DNA of 64,000 nucleotides from assembly GCA_965285935.1 (NCBI GenBank), contig OZ260662.1, positions 79,050,001 to 79,114,000 of the forward strand, read 5' to 3'. Source of the DNA: Ophelia neglecta (Eukaryota). The translations under genes and the position numbers were made by a program. Numbering within the stretch: the stretch's first letter is position 1; the number at the start of each line of letters is the position of its first letter. Positions 429 to 62,466 of this stretch are shown one piece after another. The notes below the pieces were generated by a model. It was not told where the DNA came from. It saw nothing but the letters and a program-made list of their open reading frames with translations, and did no database searches.

Positions 429-3400
429 CTGCAAAATAAAAATTATTCTTTGTTTAGCTGGATGTTAAGAATGAAATATACACATGGCTTGATAACAAGG
501 TAACTAGTGGTTTGGACAAGTCATCTTTATTAAGTGTAATTTTGTCCATGTGATATCTCTAAAAAAGTGTTTGCAATTAACAAACAATTAAACAATTGAA
601 ATCATTCGTCTTAAAAACTACATAGGTAGTCCATGCATTTGATATCCAAACGAGGCACTTTTCATTATTTCTACTAACCCACGTCCAGATCGAATATTTT
701 GTTTCGTTTTATTTAGTAGGCATAGTTTTAGTAGACTCGCGTTGAATATCAAATACATAGGCCTTCACATTTTTTTCGGGATGGGTTTCCACTGACTACA
801 AATGAGGTGGCGCGCCATCTAAAGGAGTTGAGGAGTACTAAATATACTGAGTCGCCTAAAGAACGAGGTTTCTACGAAGTTAACATAACTTGCAACTCTA
901 TAATGGAGCTAAGCTATCCCAAATCCTTCTCTATTTGTACGTTTGGGTACAGACCTGAAGGACTCGTTTGGAGAGACCTGTTTTCTGAGCCAATTCTTTC
1001 AAATCCTTGGCATCTGGGTTGTGATTCAAAGCAAAGTACATCTTCATTGCACGCAACTGGTGGTGCTTGAAGGAAGTGCGCATACGTTTTTGTCTCTGCT
1101 GTAGGGTGCCGGGGCTCATGGCGCTCAAGTCGCACAGGTCAGATTCGTGGAGACCCATCCCTTAAAGACAGAACAAACAAATAATTAACTTTCGGGCCAT
1201 TGATGACGTACCTGAAGGACGCGCTTATTCAAGCCAGATTTCTGTGCCAGCTGTTTCAAGTCTTTGGCATCAGGATTGTGATTCAAAGCGAAGTAGGATT
1301 TCATTATCCGAAGCTGGTGGTGCTTAAACGACGTGCGCATGCGCTTTTGTCGTGGCGGTTGCAGGTGCATACCATGGCTTAAACCAACATCATTTTCGTT
1401 ACAGCCTAAGCCTGGAAATATGGATACAAAAGAAAGTTTTATTAATGTAATGGGCAAGCGAATGAAATACGACACAACCGGACATCCGCTGTGACATGGC
1501 ATGATGTTCCAGGTTGCCGATGATGTCATCAACCGAAGCTGGAAGTAGGTCAGGTCCCATGCATAATTATGTTAATGAACAAAAGGATAAGGAACATAAA
1601 AAACTTGAAGTCACATTGACCTAGAAATGTAAACTATTGTCAATCCGTTTCGAGACAGTTTTTGCTTAGAAGAAGAGTCTAATTGTTAGGCCGCTGGCAG
1701 ACAATCTCGGTTCTTGGCGGCCAGTAATCTACCCATCCATCATACTCAAATAACGTCAGTTTGGCCGACTCAACTATGAATTATCCGTAACTTGCAGTCC
1801 GGCACTGGTATAGAGCCCTATCCCGATCCCATAAAACATCATATTATCGGCCTTCAGTTCAAGACTATAATTTAACCTAGTCGCAGGCGGTTAGTGATCG
1901 ATTTCCTTCAGCCACTTTCCGTCCATCATTTTTAGTCTGTATACGTGACATGGGTAGAGACTATGACCGAAATAAGTAATTTAGCTGGGGCTGCATTTTC
2001 TAAGCCGTCAATATAGCGAATCTAGGTAAAGTTGTGGCACCTGTTTTAGCTGGTCAAAGTTACAAGTGAAATGTGTTCGCTTTGGTCTATAGTACCCTGT
2101 AACTGGAAGCAGAATGTTGTTCTGGCAGTAAAACTGATCACTTTGTGAGTGGATCGGGTATCGCTAAGTTAAATCTTTTCCGCGTCGTTGTCCGTCATCG
2201 GCAATGATTGATTCAGTGTGGTCGCCTTAACTTCAAAGTCAGGAGGAAACGACGAAACGGGATCGGGAAAACGGAACAGGAAGAAGGTGGGGATGGCTAA
2301 AATCAGGATCTGCTGTGCGCCGTCCAGAAAATGACGAATATCTTTCATCGATGAGCCTATGAACGAATGAAGTCGGAATGTTGTTGGCGACTGGCAGGGG
2401 ACCACACAAGCAAAACTATGAGCAGGTTATCTGCCATCTTTAAACTATTCTGATGCCTTGATTTCTAAAAAAAAGTGCGGGTTGATTTCTAGCCAGGAGT
2501 TGTCAGTACTTGGGGCTCAATTTCACTGATGTTTAACAGCGATATTTGTACAAATACGCCTAGAGGTTTGGAGTCCTGCTAAGACTTAAGGACTTGTTTA
2601 ACTTCCATCTGCACGCTGCTGATTTTAAACAACGGTTACGCTGAACAGAAACATGTCAAGCTGTTTCGCAAACTTAGAACTGAGCTGCTAAGAGGCCCTT
2701 ATCTGTCACTGGTGACCACGGACATATGATTATTAAACCGAACACAATCAGCCGATTCCCCGGATTATAATGTTATTTAATCGAATGTTAGACCAAGAGC
2801 GTGCACTTTTTTTGGACAAAGTAAGGGAATAGTCCGCTTATGATTTGTTATAATAAATCTGAACATCAAAAGAAATTTTATCCTCTCTAAGGGGCTAGTT
2901 GTGTTTTTCGAAGTACAGGTTTTCTTATTTGAAATAATTCCAGTAAACTGACGCACGATGGGATGAGAATGCAACATTACCCACAAAATAGATGTTCGTT
3001 GTTCGTCCTCTAAGATCATATGTGAATCAGACCTATATCGGTAGATTGATCCAATGTTAATTAAGTCGGGCGGACAATTTCAGATCATATAATTCACAAA
3101 TGCAGAAAACGGACAAATAAATGCTTTGTTAAATTGACGGCCCGGGCTTCTGATTGCAGCACATTGGCAACTGAAAAAATCCACTTTGTATGCCCGAGCA
3201 ATACCTCATGCCTGTGTTAACCTTTAGCTGTGCCAGCGTCACTCGGTATCCTGTTGTTTTATCGCCCACCCGGTCGGACAGAGGGCATGATGATTCGGGT
3301 TGGGGCCGGGCCCTCTTAGGGCGTTGTGTTCGCCTGTGGCACGTTGGCCATGAATCACTGATAACCCGAGGCCCTCTGGAATACCCCCTAATCCCCTTGG

Positions 3401-12400: not shown

Positions 12401-15400
12401 ACAGGCCTGTAATTGCCCTTTTGAGGAACATCACGCAAATGGCTGGGGATTGTGCATTCCATGTCGGATCAGTTCATATTTCCTATTCATCTCGGTGCAT
12501 CAAAGAGGATGCGGTCACGAACAAAGTTCTGTTTATGAGCTGATCTATTAATTGAGGTATAATAAATTGCTAAAGACATGAGCATCGTGCAGTTGGTCGT
12601 TGCATGCAAACGTTGATTATGTTGGCTTAAGAACACAGGCCAGGAACAGAAATTGAGGAAGCCTGAACCATTCTTATTGTGAGTTACGTCGATGCCGAAG
12701 TATGGCTCAACATTATCAACCTGCAACATCATGTCATAAACAAATGTATGCTGGAAACGACAATCAGAAAAATGACCGTTTATTGGCATTCAATTTCGAC
12801 CTTTATGTAATTAAAATGAAAGAAAATACATTCACCATTTTGTTAATGCAATATCATAGGCCTGCATGGTTTTACATTTCATCATCACTTTGTTCAATTT
12901 AGGTTTATAATACACCTCTAAGTCAGCAAAAGGCAATCTTTCAATATGTGAAACAGATGTGCTTATTAAAGAAATGATTATTGTGTCATATTTTAGATTT
13001 CTATTCATGATTTTAATACTTTTTTTTTTCAAATATGACAGTATGAAAACAAATTAATTGGATGATAACTTACCCAATGATTGTGAACAATGGTCCGAGT
13101 CCGTCTCCAGATGTGACTTCCGTTTCCGGGGACGTCCCTTCTGTACGGCGCCCACGCCGTTGTAGAACGGCACGCCGTGCGAGGGCGCGTTACCGCCATG
13201 ACTGTCCGAGAATTCGTCGCCCATGCCGTTTGGAGGCATGAATTCCCCCTGTAGTACCAGTTCGTAGTGTATTCGACAGTAGATCATATTCTCCTTCATG
13301 CCGAAATGTTCTCCCGTCGTTAACATCTTATTACAGGAGGCGCATGTGAAACAGTTGAGGTGGTAGACGAAGTCACGTGCTCGCATCACCAACTCGTGAG
13401 CAGAAATACCCATGTGGCAGCGCGCGCATCTCTTCAGAGCAAACCTTCTGGAACGGAAGCGGAAACAGTGGTCAGTGACTCATCAGGCACCGATGACAGT
13501 ATAAAGATGAAAAAAGAATGCACTGCAGAGTGAAAATAAAACTAACACGATTCTAAGCCCATTGAATTATAATTATTTTACTTTTCCGGATACAGGACAC
13601 TTCAATTGAAAACAAAAGGTTACATCGACGTTCGTTTAGCCTGTTCATATATCAATATTAGGCACCAATGCATGTGATGACTAAAGAAACACAAGACTAT
13701 CATTTCGCAGCAAGCACTTGAAGAAAACAATAGGACGAAGAGGTTGTTTCTCTGGCTACCAGAGGACCTATTAGTTATCTCAGCACGGCTATTGATTTCG
13801 GAAGGAGTCATGTTAGCAAATGTTTATCTACGACATTAATCCTGTCCCAGTCGATAAGCGTGACAACGTGCAAATCGGGACCTGTTGCCCTCATACAATG
13901 TTGGTATTGACCGGCATCTTGACGTGTTTACATGGTCCAGAAGTCAGCAACCAACAGCGGGCAAGATCCCATGCACGCTTGGTACATGATGAAGCTGGGA
14001 AGGGGATGGTGGGGATGCGGGGGGGGGGGGGGATGTATGTACTAATATAATTCTACCACATCACATGTAGGCTCAGCACCTTTATATGGAAAATTATAAG
14101 GGCCGAAAACTAGAAGTACAGTCACTTTGTGCAACATATAACTGCCCCTTGATCTCAGGAACGTCGTTTAAGGCAGACGACAATTAGCGTCACATCGGCA
14201 GGCTTCCCGCTCTTGTCGATTTCACGCGTAATGATACCGTTTAGTTAGTTCTGGGTGATTATCCACCCGATAATGAGCATGCTTTGTACGTGTCACGTGG
14301 CAAATAGTTTGTCGAGCCTATTTAATCAGGCCCGTCAATATTGGTCATGTTTTGTGCTTCGATCGCCAGCGGTGCAGGGTCAAAATTGATTTTCATTATA
14401 TACATAGGCCTAACTACAATTAAACCGTATATTATGATGTTCTGTTAATAAGTCAAAATAAACACCAAATTGAATCACCCGTGTGAATTTTAATGGAATT
14501 TTCTTTTTTTTTTAATCAAAAACCAGTTAAGACATCAAGGCCTACCATAAGTAAGTCTACTCCATATTGTTTCCAGGATTAGAACTCTAAATTTAATATT
14601 GAACTAAATTCCTCTCATGATCAGAGATTCGACTGTGGTAAACTGAAAAAAGTGCTTGGAAGCCTGAAGAGGGGTGTAATCTTGAGGACACACATATAAA
14701 TATTTTGACCGACTACCGTTCTGGTAAGAGCGCCTGCCTTGTGTAGACACTAGGACTACATCACGTTTAAGCGAGTTGTTCGCTCTGTTTACGCATCAGA
14801 AATCTATTTGGCTTTCTCACCCGCCTTAAATTTTCCGGCTAGGTAATTTTGAATTCAATCTTTTCTTCGCCATCTTGTTGCGCGCTACTTACCAAGTACT
14901 TAGAATGTAATCATTCTATGGCCGTCTTTGTCGGCCTTTGAAATGTTAGATTTCAATACAGTCTTTCAAAGCGCGCGGAGTCTTTCCGATGCGACTCCTT
15001 GTAACCAGATATGCCCGCAGGAAGTTAGCCGGTCTATTTCCAGCCCACGTCCCCGATATGCTATCCATCGCCTATCGGTTAACAGATTTTTTGCCAGCGC
15101 CACAATGGATAACATTTTGCCCCGGGGAGTGTTGTTGATGGTTGAACAATGGCCAGTCCATCTGTGTGTTAGAGAGGGGGCTATTACGCTCCCGAGTCAC
15201 CCCGACAGACAAGCTATTACATGTATGGCCTAGGGCGGGGAGCGAATTGGCGTAAATTCTTTTACATACGACCACAACGCGAGCTGATCCTCGACCTCTT
15301 GAAGAAAAAGGGAAAATGATCTTATTTTAGACCCTCTGCATGCTGTCGTATCGAGCTTGAGGGAGAGCTGAGAGCAGCTCAAAAGGGAGGGAAAAGGTTT

Positions 15401-26969: not shown

Positions 26970-29900
26970 TCCCCTTACCACTTGCATTGAATAATCAAGA
27001 AATCTGATCTTTATGCAGTGCCAATCACTAAGGCAGAAGTCCTATTGCCAGTAAACTTCAATCACTAGACAAAACTCGCTGCGCCTATCAATGTCGCCCA
27101 CATAATCATCGCATTTCCCTTATTGCTGACCTAATCATTGTCGTTTTATAAGATGATTTGATATATTTGTTTCTAAAAAAGACACTGTGTCTAGATCTTA
27201 CCTGTAATAATCCTCTTTGCAATAGATGTTGCCATCCTTGGCGAAGCAGGTGAGCTCGGAGTCGAGGGGGAGCTTACATTCGGAGCACTTTAAGCAGTTC
27301 ACATGCCATTGTTTGTCGACGGCCAGTAGGTAATAACGGTCTATGATCTTACCCCCGCATGCTGCACATTGGCCAGGCTCCGCACCCTCACTGTGTATGA
27401 CAGGCATGGTCTGCAAACAACGGAGAAAAAACATTATATTTGGCTAGCAGACTCTTACTATCAACAGAAAATGTGATTCCATGCATGGTGAAACAATTTA
27501 TTTTTCGCTTCAGGCAACGATTCATCTCAGTGAAAAGAAATCGCAAGACGAATAAGACATTAATGTAAAAAATTGCCATCGACGTGTGCGAATTAAAACG
27601 TTCTGAATGCTGCATAATAGACTTATGTCTATATATTTATTTATTTATTAAACAAGTTTATACGGGGTAGATTATACTAATGACCCCGATGTTGAAATAT
27701 AAAGTGAAATCTTGCTTGAAGGCTACCTCTGTACCCGGACCACCTGTCAAGTCAGACCACTAATATGCAGAACACTCTCACTGTAAAATAAGATAGCATC
27801 TCCATAATCAGTCCGCTATTTAACTGACTGGAAAACACTCACTTGTTTGGCCCAAGCGTAGGATGAAAAAAAGTGAAGTAAGCGCACGTTCGAATTCAAC
27901 ATTGAAAGTATTGGAAGGCCATGGGTCAGTCAATATTGTCATTTCAGAGGCGTTCCGCGATGCATGTTTTATCAGCCGGAAGTAGAAATCGACACTGAAC
28001 GCGGAGAAGAAACCACAGCACCAAACTGACAATATCAGGCAGCTGTTATAGAGTTGTCGGGGAGGAGAAACCTTTTTTGATTAAACTATTTGACAATGCC
28101 AACTCCTTCTTTACTGTAAATTCACAAAGGCAGCCCCAATAGTATGTTGTGTTTTATTGGTAATTATAATAGGTGGCAGCCTTCCAAGGGCTGATCTTGG
28201 CAGTACATATTGGGCGCACAAGTAATTATTAAAAAATAATAATAATGCATGCTTATTATATTGGTCAGTGTAGGCAAATTATATAAATCTCCCAGGAAGT
28301 AAAATTCACGATATTGCCCTCACATTTGGTAAAAAAAATCTCCATCTAAACATGCATGAATGCTCATTGACATTTCAAAATCAGGAACAAAATATTTCCG
28401 ATTGCATTAGCTCTAGAGTTCGCACTGACGCATGGACCATTTCTAAATGATTGACCCTTTTATATGGGGTTCGCATGTATCGCTATATTAACCATAATTA
28501 TACAATGAGAAATGATGAGAGGCTCATAGAACAGGTAATACTTGAGGTAACACTAATCAGATTATTTTACATTGTTAGACAGGATAATCTTTCCTCAGAT
28601 AAACCCTTCACAGCGATTGTCTGCCTAATTTGAACGATAATTGGGGTTAATCCTAATTGCCCAACAATTAATTCTACCGGCGGCCTTTGTACACGAAATA
28701 ATTGAGTAATTGCTTATTCAATGCTCCCGCTGGGGATTTCAATGATCCTGGGATGAAAGCAAACATTTGTCTTGCGCAGTTCAATAAAAGCATATTTGTA
28801 TAAAACATTGGGCTTTTTCCACAAAAAAGTCATTGTAAAACAAGAATAATATTACCATTATTGATTAACATATAATGTATCAGATAAAGCAAAGAGGGTG
28901 GCGTTTTATATAAGATTGTTGATTCTAGAAACGAGAGAAATTCAATAAACAACAACTGTGGGGCAAAAGTTTTAATTCCAAAAAGTCGTTGATATATCAT
29001 TATGTTTGAAAGGTCTTCAATACGTGTTGGAGCCTGTTCACTTTAGATCGACAGATCACCAAGAAATTGGACACCGCTCAAGTAAAAAAAATCTCTTTCT
29101 ACTGTATCCCCGAAAAGGTGGCGTTTTATATTTCCCTCTGCCCAGTAGTGGAAGGATGTGGTCGAGTGAAGGCTGGTGTTTTTTATGCCCCTGTCACCCG
29201 ATATTATTCCATATGATCTCTTTTGTGGTCCCTTGTCAACCGAACACGACGCCAGAGCACGCATGAATTAAACGGCTGAATAATCCATTGAAAAATAATA
29301 CAATATCTCCGTCCTTAAATGTTATCAGCGACATGTCAACAAATTCATCGGACGTGTCACTCAAACTGCTTAGAGGCCCCACTCCCTCTCTGATGACATA
29401 TACGCCCCAGGACAAATACATGTAACTATGGTTACAGCTATAGATATAATTTATGTGCTTCATTCTTAATACAACATACTTTGAATTTTTTTTTTTACAT
29501 CTTATTATGTAGTCTGATCAAGTGCCAAAACTTTCCTAGAATTATTTAAATAATAAAGGCTTGATTGATTACTATAGGGTAGAATTTGACCCACAGACGG
29601 AAAACAAACTAAAATTGTACAAGTAAAGTGAAAAAAAAACCGCAGCAGCAGATTTGAACCTTAGCAAAGAAGGAACAAGGAAAACAATTTAAGAACTTGT
29701 ATAAAATAACATGTGGACGAGCACCCATCATCGGGTCAGTAAGGATAGGCCTGTAGGCCTTCTGTAGGCCTACAAGTAACCCACGTCACTGCTTGTTCTT
29801 TGTCTCTAGGTACATGTATGTAACAGAAGTAAAGCTTCCATTGAGGGATGTAATTATGGCTAGGCTAACTCAGTTTGTAGGTCCAGTGAGAATCGGGTTG

Positions 29901-60196: not shown

Positions 60197-61413
60197 GTAA
60201 TCAGTTTTAATTATGGCTTGATATACGTTATATTGGATTTGTTACTGGTCTTTTTAAGTCTGAAGAGGAAACAGTTTAAATATCCTAACTTCAATGCAAT
60301 CAAATTATTTTTCACTTTGAATATTGGACCAGTCACGCTTTTTTGCCACAGAACTTGTTTATCATACGATGAAATATCAATATGGAGCAGCGGCATATGA
60401 CCGGGTCCAGAATCAATATTGTCATTTATAGCTGTATTTCAGTTTCCTGTTGCGAAATTGTTAAAACAGGGGCGACTTGAACAAAAGAAAGCCATTGATT
60501 GGGCATTGAGTCACCCTAAGCCCTCTGTAATCTTATATAGGCCTACTATCCCGCAAGTCCTCAAGGCTTGTGTAACACTTAGATAAACTGGCAGATTATA
60601 ATGATTTCTGCGTTATTTTAGTTTTCAGTCCTACAAACGTTAACGTTAACAGTTGCAAGCGATGAAACAGCGTTGGCAAATCAAGCCTGTGAATATAAAT
60701 GTGCCGTATTCAACTGCTTAGTGTTTATACAGTTTGTTGTTACTACATGTCATTGAGGACAATGGGCTCCAACCAAGTCAATGAAAGTAAATTCTCATCT
60801 CATCAGTGTATGTATGAATTGGTATTTCATAAAGACATTAAGAGAAAGTATGCTTGAATTCTGGCAGACGATATGACAACGGCGCTCAGGATCTATAATT
60901 ATCTGATAGTTCTGTTTCATTGATTTCCAGCTAGTTACCATTGGATTTAGCTCGGAATGTGTGCTATCACTGGTTTATTATTACTGAACTAGTGGGAACC
61001 AAGTTTGACATCAATAAAACTACTTCTCGTTTTGTGTGAAGACATACAATACTTACCATCACGTGTTTGGAGCTCTTCTTGACTTAATATTAATATGACC
61101 CGATGCTAAGTGTCTGATGACTCTTCAGCCAACATTGATCCTTGCTGGTTAATACCGATTATTGACATACTTCTCTGGCTCAGTCATTTTTGAATATCAT
61201 ATGTTCTCGAATCTATATATTCATGCGTAGAATATTGCGGAGCTTTGACTAATCCTGATTATGCATTAATATCATGAATGTCAAATGGAACGGCTTCATA
61301 GCCAGAAATTGGCAGAATAGTGAATGGTACTGAGGGATAACACTTCAAGTCAAAACGGAGCATCGGAGAGATAAAGAGAGCATCGCTCTTCTCGGAATTA
61401 TAGCATATTGGGT

Positions 61414-62466
61414 ATGGAGCATATTGTCACCACAAGTACACCAGTAAGAGAAATGGACCAAGTGGGCTCTTCTTTTGTTCATTTTGAACCGCCAAATTTT
61501 GCTAAATATTGCCTGATATTACTCATGTGTTTTGGACTTATTGGCAACACTGTTGTAGTGGTGCTGTATCTAAGAGCGAAGGAGCTCAAGTGTCCGGTTA
61601 ATTTGTTAACTGTGAATCTCGCCTTAGCCGATAACGGAGTTCTACTTTGCGCAACCGGAAAACTGGTCAATATGATCACGAAGAAAGGAATGGTCCCTGA
61701 AAGCGGAAGCTTGGAATGCACCTCATTGGGATTCTTGACGTCTTGGACTTCTTCCTCTTCCCTGATATCCATGACAGTCATCACATTTGCGCGTTATGTG
61801 AGCATTGTCCAAGTACATCTTAAGCGATTTTTAACTTGGAAATTCTGTTTGATGGCGGCTATGTTTGTGTGGTTTTATTCTTTGGCCATTCTTTCTCCTG
61901 TTCTGTACGGATGGTCTCGAATTATTCAAAACCCAATTGCGTTTTCCTGCACTATTGATTATTCATACAGGAAATCATACCTGGCTTTTTTAGCAGTCTT
62001 CGGATACTGTCTACCAACAGGGGCTGTGGGTTATTGTTATGTGAAGATTTTCCAAGTGTTTCGAAGCAGCAAGAGGCGAGTGTTGGCCAACACTCAACTG
62101 CAACATCAGCAACTCCAGCAAAGAACTGTGAACCCTAGTCGTAAAGAGATGCGGTTAGCTGTCCAACTCTTGGTGATCTTCCTCGTGTTTGCTCTGTGTT
62201 GGGCGCCCTACGCCATGTTGAGCTTCACAGACCCAACTGGCCAATTAGGTCCGGGACCTTACATGGCCACTGTAGTTCTGCTTGCGTTTAATTCCTCCGT
62301 CAATATCATCATCTACCTTGCACTCAACAAGACATTCAGGAAAGTAACAATTGAGAAGTTCTTGCCGAAGAGTTTGTGTCCACACTTGAAGACAGTACAA
62401 TCTATGCCTACCCATCAGATTTCTGTCGTGGAAACAAGTGGGACAAATAAAGCAGAGCAAAAGTGA
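61414..62466 (+). CDS. Intronless class A (rhodopsin-family) GPCR, 350 aa; melatonin-receptor-like/opsin-related orphan
   Basis: Seven hydrophobic segments with GN (TM1), NLALAD (TM2), Cys at the top of TM3, ARY at the DRY position, CWAPY (TM6), NSSVNIIIY plus NKTFR (TM7/helix 8). First ATG after the in-frame TAA at 61372 is 61414 (the track's start at 61408 is TTG). AATAAA at 62474-62479. Confidence 0.93.
   Translation: MEHIVTTSTPVREMDQVGSSFVHFEPPNFAKYCLILLMCFGLIGNTVVVVLYLRAKELKCPVNLLTVNLALADNGVLLCATGKLVNMITKKGMVPESGSLECTSLGFLTSWTSSSSLISMTVITFARYVSIVQVHLKRFLTWKFCLMAAMFVWFYSLAILSPVLYGWSRIIQNPIAFSCTIDYSYRKSYLAFLAVFGYCLPTGAVGYCYVKIFQVFRSSKRRVLANTQLQHQQLQQRTVNPSRKEMRLAVQLLVIFLVFALCWAPYAMLSFTDPTGQLGPGPYMATVVLLAFNSSVNIIIYLALNKTFRKVTIEKFLPKSLCPHLKTVQSMPTHQISVVETSGTNKAEQK

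What the first reader, a model, noticed from the sequence alone, without database searches (positions are those of the whole stretch)
1161..1211. 51-nt spacer gives a built-in double lock against joining the two homeodomain exons
Seen: the spacer (minus strand GTACGTCATCAATGGCCCGAAAGTTAATTATTTGTTTGTTCTGTCTTTAAG) is 51 nt, whereas the gene's other introns are 0.5-14 kb. The best branch-point-like motif (GTTAAT) lies only ~25 nt from the exon 4a donor. Joining 4a (phase 0) to 4b (phase 1) frameshifts to GWVSTNLTCAT-stop upstream of the last junction. Established: a donor too close to the next branch point enforces exclusivity sterically (alpha-tropomyosin exons 2/3), and frame incompatibility with NMD is a second known mechanism. 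Inference: both mechanisms could operate here.
Basis: partly seen in the sequence, partly recalled or inferred. Interest (0 to 1): 0.7.

Follow-up and report, generated by a model that had tools for sequence, protein, structure and literature searches.

The report
Either-or homeodomain exons in Lhx2/9
A developmental regulator gene (Lhx2/9), likely from an annelid worm, carries two intact copies of its DNA-binding-domain exon only 51 bases apart, shorter than every ordinary intron measured with confidence in this genome, so the cell likely cannot splice both in and likely uses one or the other, a known splicing trick not found in print for this gene.

Summary
Observation confirmed. The spacer is 51 nt, between homeodomain exons 4a (200 nt) and 4b (206 nt) of Lhx2/9. 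Joining them frameshifts to a stop 170 nt before the last junction.

The size lock is well supported. None of 457 myosin and dynein introns of this genome is under 80 nt (13 doubtful single-reference calls dropped), and 255 of 268 introns shortened to 51 nt were recovered as a control. The spacer stays short elsewhere: 53 nt in a close relative, 49 nt in tubeworms. Meis (63 nt) and Pax2/5/8 (47 nt) exon pairs in this genome are built the same way; COQ2 (2.65 kb) is not. Both exons look functional.

The NMD lock is only a back-up. The frameshift follows from the exon's phases, the Pax pair lacks it, and keeping the spacer creates no stop before the end of the second copy in either relative lineage.

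No RNA data, so exclusivity is inferred. Verdict: new member of a known kind; interest 0.45.

The parts
27202..27410 (-). LIM1 exon of Lhx2/9
   Evidence: Pfam LIM; spliced alignment
13074..13447 (-). LIM2 exon, ends in phase 1; tandem NAGNAG acceptor (exon start 13447 or 13444)
1212..1411 (-). Exon 4a: linker plus homeodomain residues up to 46, 200 nt, phase 1 to 0; acceptor 82nd and donor 93rd percentile of genome sites
1161..1211 (-). 51-nt GT-AG spacer, below the 80-nt floor of the ordinary introns measured; in-frame stop at its 9th codon if retained
1184..1189 (-). Candidate branch motif GTTAAT (A at 1185, 27 nt from the 4a donor); predicted, not mapped
   Evidence: compatible codons kept in P0127
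955..1160 (-). Exon 4b: different linker plus homeodomain residues up to 46 (42/47 aa as 4a), 206 nt, phase 1 to 0; acceptor 61st and donor 41st percentile
1125..1127 (-). Premature stop reached if 4a is spliced to 4b, 170 nt before the last known junction
1147..1161 (-). Upstream arm of a predicted 14-bp stem: last base of the 4b acceptor AG and first 14 nt of 4b
778..792 (-). Downstream arm of the predicted stem, in the intron after 4b; single-copy in the genome
162..428 (-). Shared last coding exon, begins with recognition-helix residues VWFQN

Best explanation
Exons 4a and 4b are an old tandem duplicate of the Lhx2/9 homeodomain exon that is likely spliced either-or, mainly because the 51-nt spacer is likely too short for this organism's spliceosome, with a predicted RNA stem likely tilting the choice to 4a and NMD as a likely back-up only. 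Shown: both exons are intact with normal splice sites; each alone restores the full frame; the spacer is below all retained ordinary intron calls; short spacers recur in relatives and in two other transcription-factor genes of this genome. Inferred: U1 at the 4a donor and U2 at a branch point about 27 nt away cannot assemble together, so each message uses LIM2-4a-5 or LIM2-4b-5. Predicted: pairing of 1161-1147 with 792-778 hides the 4b acceptor and loops 4b out. The two proteins would share the recognition helix and differ at homeodomain positions 15, 18, 33, 38 and 41 and in the LIM-homeodomain linker. By established homeodomain numbering (recalled) none of the five positions contacts bases, so partner binding or affinity is the likelier difference than target motif.
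For: Intron floor: 0 of 268 myosin introns under 80 nt; control recovered 255 of 268 shortened to 51 nt. 189 dynein introns backed by at least 2 of 3 references have a minimum of 99; pooled 457, minimum 80, median 258. Conserved short spacer: 53 nt in P0127; 49 nt in all 14 tubeworm-type read-through proteins, including the Lamellibrachia satsuma and Ridgeia piscesae models. Both exons under selection: 4a vs 4b pS 0.82, dN 0.10; against P0127 the 8 visible changes in the 4b homeodomain are all third-position. Same genome: Meis pair 63 nt, Pax2/5/8 pair 47 nt with 3n exons. In-frame cryptic acceptors in 4b score at the 3rd percentile, apart from the exon's own end. Stem: pair probability about 1.0; 2 of 1000 shuffles by energy and 0 of 1000 by Watson-Crick score; 0 and 1 of 248 control exons.
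Against: No transcript shows use of 4b, exclusivity or the branch point. The intron sample is two motor-protein families with paralogues, not the genome. 13 single-reference dynein calls under 80 nt were dropped; 7 were inspected and lay in conflicting parses, 6 were not inspected. Other annelids splice very short introns (Capitella median 57 bp, PMC7854359), so the machinery may be able to. No intron floor was measured for tubeworms or for the P0127 species. COQ2's tandem pair is 2.65 kb apart, so a short spacer is not required. The stem was found after the fact (8 site-by-intron tests, corrected p about 0.02-0.03), has no upstream counterpart and has no covariation data.
Confidence: 0.7

Rival explanations
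1. The spacer is spliceable and exclusivity at the protein level comes only from NMD of the frameshifted double-inclusion message.
For: The stop lies 170 nt before the last junction; UPF1 is present; both spacer splice sites score well; Capitella and Dimorphilus have median introns of 57 and 66 bp; 14 of 19 non-3n C. elegans clusters rely partly on NMD.
Against: 0 of 457 retained intron calls under 80 nt; the Pax2/5/8 pair keeps a 47-nt spacer with no frameshift to catch.
Confidence: 0.1
2. The working product is the spacer-retained message: a homeodomain lacking helix 3 here (like vertebrate Lhx9a/b), and an in-frame one-and-three-quarter homeodomain protein in tubeworms.
For: The 49-nt spacer is in frame and stop-free in all 14 tubeworm-type proteins, and two GenBank models read through it. 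Vertebrate Lhx9 has translated truncated-homeodomain variants. C. elegans bet-2 retains its short intron.
Against: Only in-frame read-throughs can be found as two-homeodomain proteins, so the sample is biased. The spacer's frame differs between lineages (49, 51, 53 nt). Both named models lack LIM domains and are predictions. Here retention gives a stop 230 nt before the last junction.
Confidence: 0.08
3. The RNA stem, not spacer size, is what enforces exclusivity, as in Drosophila serpent exon 4.
For: A strong, single-copy stem over the 4b acceptor. In P0127 the four codons under the arm are unchanged while the next 6 of 6 differ. Downstream pairing is needed for serpent exon 4.1.
Against: No competing upstream stem or second selector was found, so with the stem open nothing else blocks double inclusion. 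The tubeworm second exon starts with a different sequence. The statistics are after the fact.
Confidence: 0.07
4. Exon 4b is a dead or almost unused duplicate and the short spacer is a leftover of the duplication.
For: The stem would silence 4b; its donor is the weaker one (41st percentile); all 4 reference proteins aligned to 4a.
Against: Silent sites are saturated yet dN is 0.10; 8 of 8 visible changes against P0127 are third-position; the frame is open and the acceptor is at the 61st percentile.
Confidence: 0.05

Closest known systems
C. elegans mutually exclusive clusters with a too-short intervening intron (egl-15 5B/5A 14 nt, let-2 9/10 30 nt, bet-2, gly-5, gly-6; PMC4165533, passages read)
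   Same: Exons separated by a GT-AG spacer below the species' minimal intron size.
   Different: The floor here is about 80 nt, not about 40. All five worm clusters have 3n exons; this pair is non-3n, so a frameshift back-up exists too. Exclusivity here is not shown by RT-PCR.
Steric branch-point exclusion: OGDH 4a/4b (PMC7969005, passages read); alpha-tropomyosin exons 2/3 (recalled)
   Same: Donor-to-branch distance (27 nt predicted) is under the proposed threshold of about 50 nt; OGDH branch points lie at 25-41 nt.
   Different: Those use a distant branch point in a longer intron; here the whole intron is 51 nt and the branch motif sits at a normal distance from the acceptor.
Drosophila serpent exon 4.1/4.2 RNA pairing (PMC4691838, abstract and sections 5, 7 read)
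   Same: Transcription-factor exon duplicate; a downstream pairing loops out the second exon and favours the first.
   Different: Only the downstream stem was found; its upstream arm is mostly exonic and covers the acceptor; conservation and function are untested.
Capitella teleta Meis exon 9 tandem duplication (PMC3140891, passage read; supplement not available)
   Same: Mutually exclusive duplicate exon in an annelid homeobox gene with 5 residue changes; this genome's Meis has a homeodomain exon pair differing at 5 residues.
   Different: Different gene; the passage gives no spacer length or mechanism.
Vertebrate Lhx9a/b truncated-homeodomain isoforms (PMC9310833, abstract and section 2.1 read)
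   Same: Alternative splicing that changes the Lhx2/9 homeodomain region.
   Different: Those swap in a new C-terminus; here two complete homeodomains are possible.

Membership tests
Lhx2/9 (apterous) LIM-homeobox genes | Two LIM domains followed by an Lhx2/9-type homeodomain | tested here: met
   Pfam LIM twice and Homeodomain twice; only PDB hit at E 1e-8 is Lhx9 2DMQ; best hits named Lhx2/Lhx9
Mutually exclusive exons from tandem duplication | Homologous neighbouring exons, same phases, each restoring the frame | tested here: met
Mutually exclusive exons from tandem duplication | Both copies under purifying selection | tested here: met
   pS 0.82, dN 0.10; 8:0:0 changes by codon position against P0127
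Mutually exclusive exons from tandem duplication | Transcripts hold exactly one copy and both copies are used | not testable with these tools
   Needs RNA reads of this organism; none were laid
Steric (too-short intron) exclusion | Intervening intron below the species' minimal intron size | tested here: met
   51 nt against a minimum of 80 in 457 retained calls, with positive control; two gene families only, 13 doubtful short calls dropped
Steric (too-short intron) exclusion | Mapped branch point under about 50 nt from the upstream donor | tested here: inconclusive
   Every A in the spacer is within 50 nt; best motif at 27 nt; not mapped by lariats
Steric (too-short intron) exclusion | Lengthening the spacer allows double inclusion | not testable with these tools
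   Minigene experiment
NMD-backed exclusivity | Non-3n exons; double inclusion gives a stop over 50 nt before a junction | tested here: met
   170 nt; UPF1 present
NMD-backed exclusivity | Double-inclusion message rises when NMD is blocked | not testable with these tools
   Needs knock-down and RNA
RNA-pairing (docking site/selector) exclusivity | Competing or two-way pairings, one for each exon | tested here: not met
   One stem only; no second selector or upstream stem above chance
RNA-pairing (docking site/selector) exclusivity | Pairing conserved with compensatory changes | tested here: inconclusive
   Only the upstream arm is visible in one relative, through its translation; no DNA for the other arm
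U2/U12 spliceosome incompatibility | One flanking intron of U12 type | tested here: not met
   All four donors are ordinary GT sites without the U12 consensus (consensus recalled; donors)

The most novel reading that the evidence does not exclude
This lineage repeatedly diversifies the DNA-binding domains of master regulators (Lhx2/9, Meis, Pax2/5/8) with one device: a duplicate exon locked by a sub-minimal spacer. In Lhx2/9 a stem over the second acceptor sets the ratio. The roughly 50-nt design arose twice in annelids or survived since their deep split, and in vent and seep tubeworms the unspliceable spacer has become coding, giving a tandem-homeodomain Lhx2/9.
Probability: 0.2. Interest if true: 0.68.

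Novelty: new member of a known kind. Interest (0 to 1): 0.45.

Why it matters
Lhx2/9 (apterous) is single-copy in this genome. An either-or homeodomain exon would give it two versions without gene duplication, and gene models miss it: the two named tubeworm models read straight through the spacer. The locus puts three known exclusivity devices (spacer size, frameshift, RNA stem) within 700 bases, so one minigene can rank them. The Pax2/5/8 pair in the same genome is a natural control with no frameshift. The mechanism itself is established, which limits the surprise.

Tried and rejected
No RNA holder listed; the three runs laid appear to be DNA contigs of one sample and show no joints.

Assembly artefact rejected. 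Further homeodomain copies rejected: only two in the window and genome. U12 incompatibility rejected. Cryptic in-frame acceptors in 4b that would give a 113-227-nt intron score at the 3rd percentile. Local folding of 1260-1110 is weaker than shuffles (z +1.49).

Metagenome scan: 96 loci, mostly clitellate-like by my reading. None has a second full homeodomain exon; L111 has a partial internal repeat; 65 of 96 had at least 300 nt on both sides. The tandem is therefore not general, though copies over 1.45 kb away could not be seen.

A tree of 30 exon peptides did not settle one origin or two. AU p was 0.23 for 4a+4b, 0.17 for all downstream copies, 0.048 for all upstream copies and 0.02 for both tubeworm copies together, with long branches and 69 columns.

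The LIM2 search was filled by vertebrates, with no annelid isoform pair among the 120 listed. The representatives search found no further read-through relative. The Atlas added nothing. Near-identical internal repeats in bird, moth and fish models (P0001, P0002, P0004) were not followed up. No tandem exon was seen in one 10-kb Argonaute stretch. An upstream pairing for Meis 9b (2 of 200 shuffles) involves a G-run with a low Watson-Crick score and was set aside. The Neanthes apterous paper has no mention of isoforms or splicing. The supplement of PMC3140891 could not be read; it may hold the Capitella Meis exon coordinates.

Full report
What is there. The window holds a minus-strand Lhx2/9 (apterous) gene: LIM1 exon 27410-27202, LIM2 exon 13447-13074, two homeodomain exons and a last coding exon 428-162. 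Exon 4a (1411-1212, 200 nt) and exon 4b (1160-955, 206 nt) both run phase 1 to phase 0, and each alone gives the full protein. They are the only two such exons in the window and the 762-Mb genome. One contig per run spans the region at flat depth in 3 of 3 runs of one sample. The organism is likely an annelid. That is an inference from Capitella-like residues in 4a and a Meis exon pair like Capitella's; the LIM2 search listed no annelid among its best 120.

The observation. The spacer is 51 nt as quoted. Splicing 4a to 4b reaches a stop 170 nt before the last known junction. Keeping the spacer reaches a stop 230 nt before it. Skipping both exons stops 26 nt inside the last exon, so that LIM-only form would not meet the junction rule for NMD. 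The best branch-type A is 27 nt from the 4a donor. The motif class is enriched at the expected place in this genome's introns (119 vs 69 of 277).

Is 51 nt too short here? The doubt was real: Capitella and Dimorphilus have median introns of 57 and 66 bp (PMC7854359, passages). I aligned proteins to genomic stretches with a spliced aligner that allows introns down to 25 nt. In 19 myosin stretches all 268 calls were 80 nt or longer, median 258. When those introns were shortened in silico, 255 of 268 were recovered at 51 nt, 263 at 50 and 261 at 52. In 17 dynein stretches the 189 introns backed by at least 2 of 3 references had a minimum of 99 nt. Fifteen single-reference calls under 85 nt (13 under 80) were dropped; the 7 inspected lay in conflicting parses of poorly aligned loops, and 6 under 80 were not inspected. 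Pooled, 0 of 457 are under 80 nt. This covers two families with paralogues, not the whole genome.

Relatives. An unnamed ENA protein, P0127, runs from a 4a orthologue through a 53-nt spacer into 4b read in another frame. Its spacer keeps codons compatible with the branch motif at the same distance from the acceptor. All 8 visible changes in its 4b homeodomain are at third positions. All 14 tubeworm-type read-through proteins, including models from Lamellibrachia satsuma and Ridgeia piscesae, imply a 49-nt spacer. These are near-relatives of each other (modern vestimentiferans diverged about 65 Ma, PMC9921365, passages) and can be found only because they read through. There the upstream copy is the divergent one. 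Between 4a and 4b silent sites are saturated (pS 0.82) while dN is 0.10, so the duplication is old and both copies are maintained. A peptide tree could not decide between one origin and two. None of 96 metagenome loci, mostly clitellate-like, showed a second full exon; 65 had room to show a close one.

Same genome, other pairs. Meis has tandem 77-nt homeodomain exons 63 nt apart that differ at 5 residues. A Pax2/5/8-type gene has tandem 198-nt paired-domain exons 47 nt apart, with normal splice sites and no frameshift on joining. The COQ2 pair is about 2.65 kb apart. So 3 of the 4 pairs found are below the floor. The pairs were not picked blind: Pax was looked at because of an earlier AI note, Meis and COQ2 because of papers. 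The Fisher value therefore overstates the case.

The double lock. The size lock holds up. The frameshift comes with the exon's phases and needs no selection. In C. elegans the five too-short clusters all have 3n exons, while 14 of 19 non-3n clusters lean on NMD (PMC4165533, passages); the Pax pair fits that pattern. UPF1 is present, but whether NMD follows the junction rule in this animal is unknown. If the spacer cannot be cut, the likelier leak is retention. That is caught by a stop here, but there is no stop through 4b in P0127 and the frame is kept in tubeworms. NMD is best read as a back-up.

A third element. Positions 1161-1147, covering the G of the 4b acceptor and the first 14 nt of 4b, pair with 792-778 in the next intron. 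There are 14 Watson-Crick pairs and one mismatch, at -27.8 kcal/mol, with pair probabilities near 1 in a 1,051-nt fold. It was matched by 2 of 1000 shuffles by energy and 0 of 1000 by Watson-Crick score, and by 0 and 1 of 248 control exons. It was found after the fact, and 8 site-by-intron combinations were tested, so the corrected p is about 0.02-0.03. The intron arm is single-copy. In P0127 the four codons under the arm are unchanged and the next 6 of 6 differ, which protein or splice-site constraint could also explain. The stem would hide 4b and bring the 4a donor near exon 5, as the downstream stem of serpent does (PMC4691838, sections 5 and 7). No counterpart favouring 4b was found, so it is a candidate bias, not a lock.

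Mechanism. Shown: anatomy, frames, splice-site strength, intron floor in a sample, short spacers in relatives, selection on both exons. Inferred: steric clash, either-or splicing, use of 4b. Predicted: branch point, stem, NMD. The two proteins would share the recognition helix and differ at 5 homeodomain positions and in the linker. By recalled homeodomain numbering these positions do not contact bases.

Novelty. The mechanism is known (C. elegans clusters; OGDH, PMC7969005, passages; alpha-tropomyosin, recalled). A mutually exclusive exon pair is reported for Capitella Meis. Five searches (listings only) and the Neanthes apterous paper (passages) showed no report of a duplicated homeodomain exon in Lhx2/9; the library lacks most subscription journals. 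PMC6071210 was seen as abstract only, PMC9310833 as abstract and section 2.1, and PMC12403961 as passages. Verdict: real feature, new member of a known kind, first reading partly supported, interest 0.45.

Noticed in passing
L155:1207-1423 (G000:C1:94100706-94100922, +): Meis gene with tandem 77-nt homeodomain exons, a 63-nt spacer and 5 residue differences, as reported for Capitella Meis exon 9.
   Followed up: partly
L167, minus strand 536-978 (about G000:C8:76388023-76388465): Pax2/5/8-type gene with tandem 198-nt paired-domain exons (57/65 aa identical) and a 47-nt spacer; joining them would not frameshift.
   Followed up: partly
L164:4431-7343 (G000:C7, +): COQ2 has two homologous exons like the e/a pair linked to rhodoquinone synthesis, about 2.65 kb apart.
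   Followed up: partly
P0005, P0198 and related proteins: Tubeworm Lhx2/9 gene models read through a 49-nt in-frame spacer into two homeodomains; the upstream copy is strongly divergent. Probably mis-annotated alternative exons.
   Followed up: partly
window 428-403 (minus): Skipping both 4a and 4b gives a LIM-only protein whose stop lies in the last exon and would escape junction-based NMD.
   Followed up: no
window 13450-13445 (minus): Tandem NAGNAG acceptor of the LIM2 exon, adding or removing one arginine.
   Followed up: no
window 713 and 531 (minus): AATAAA sites in the intron after 4b could end a truncated-homeodomain message; expected by chance in AT-rich DNA.
   Followed up: no
window 1178: A single-base variant inside the spacer in 2 of 3 runs; it creates no AG and lies outside the branch motif and the stem.
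   Followed up: no
window 61375-62463 (+): Single-exon rhodopsin-family 7TM receptor (Pfam 7tm_1).
   Followed up: no
L006 and L125-L126: A non-muscle myosin II-like gene with a 1,908-residue open frame and a dynein heavy chain with a 2,953-residue open frame, in an otherwise intron-rich genome.
   Followed up: no
L026-L121: Clitellate-like hosts carry at least three divergent Lhx2/9 homeodomain exon types, none in close tandem; one type shares the Q33E change with 4b.
   Followed up: no
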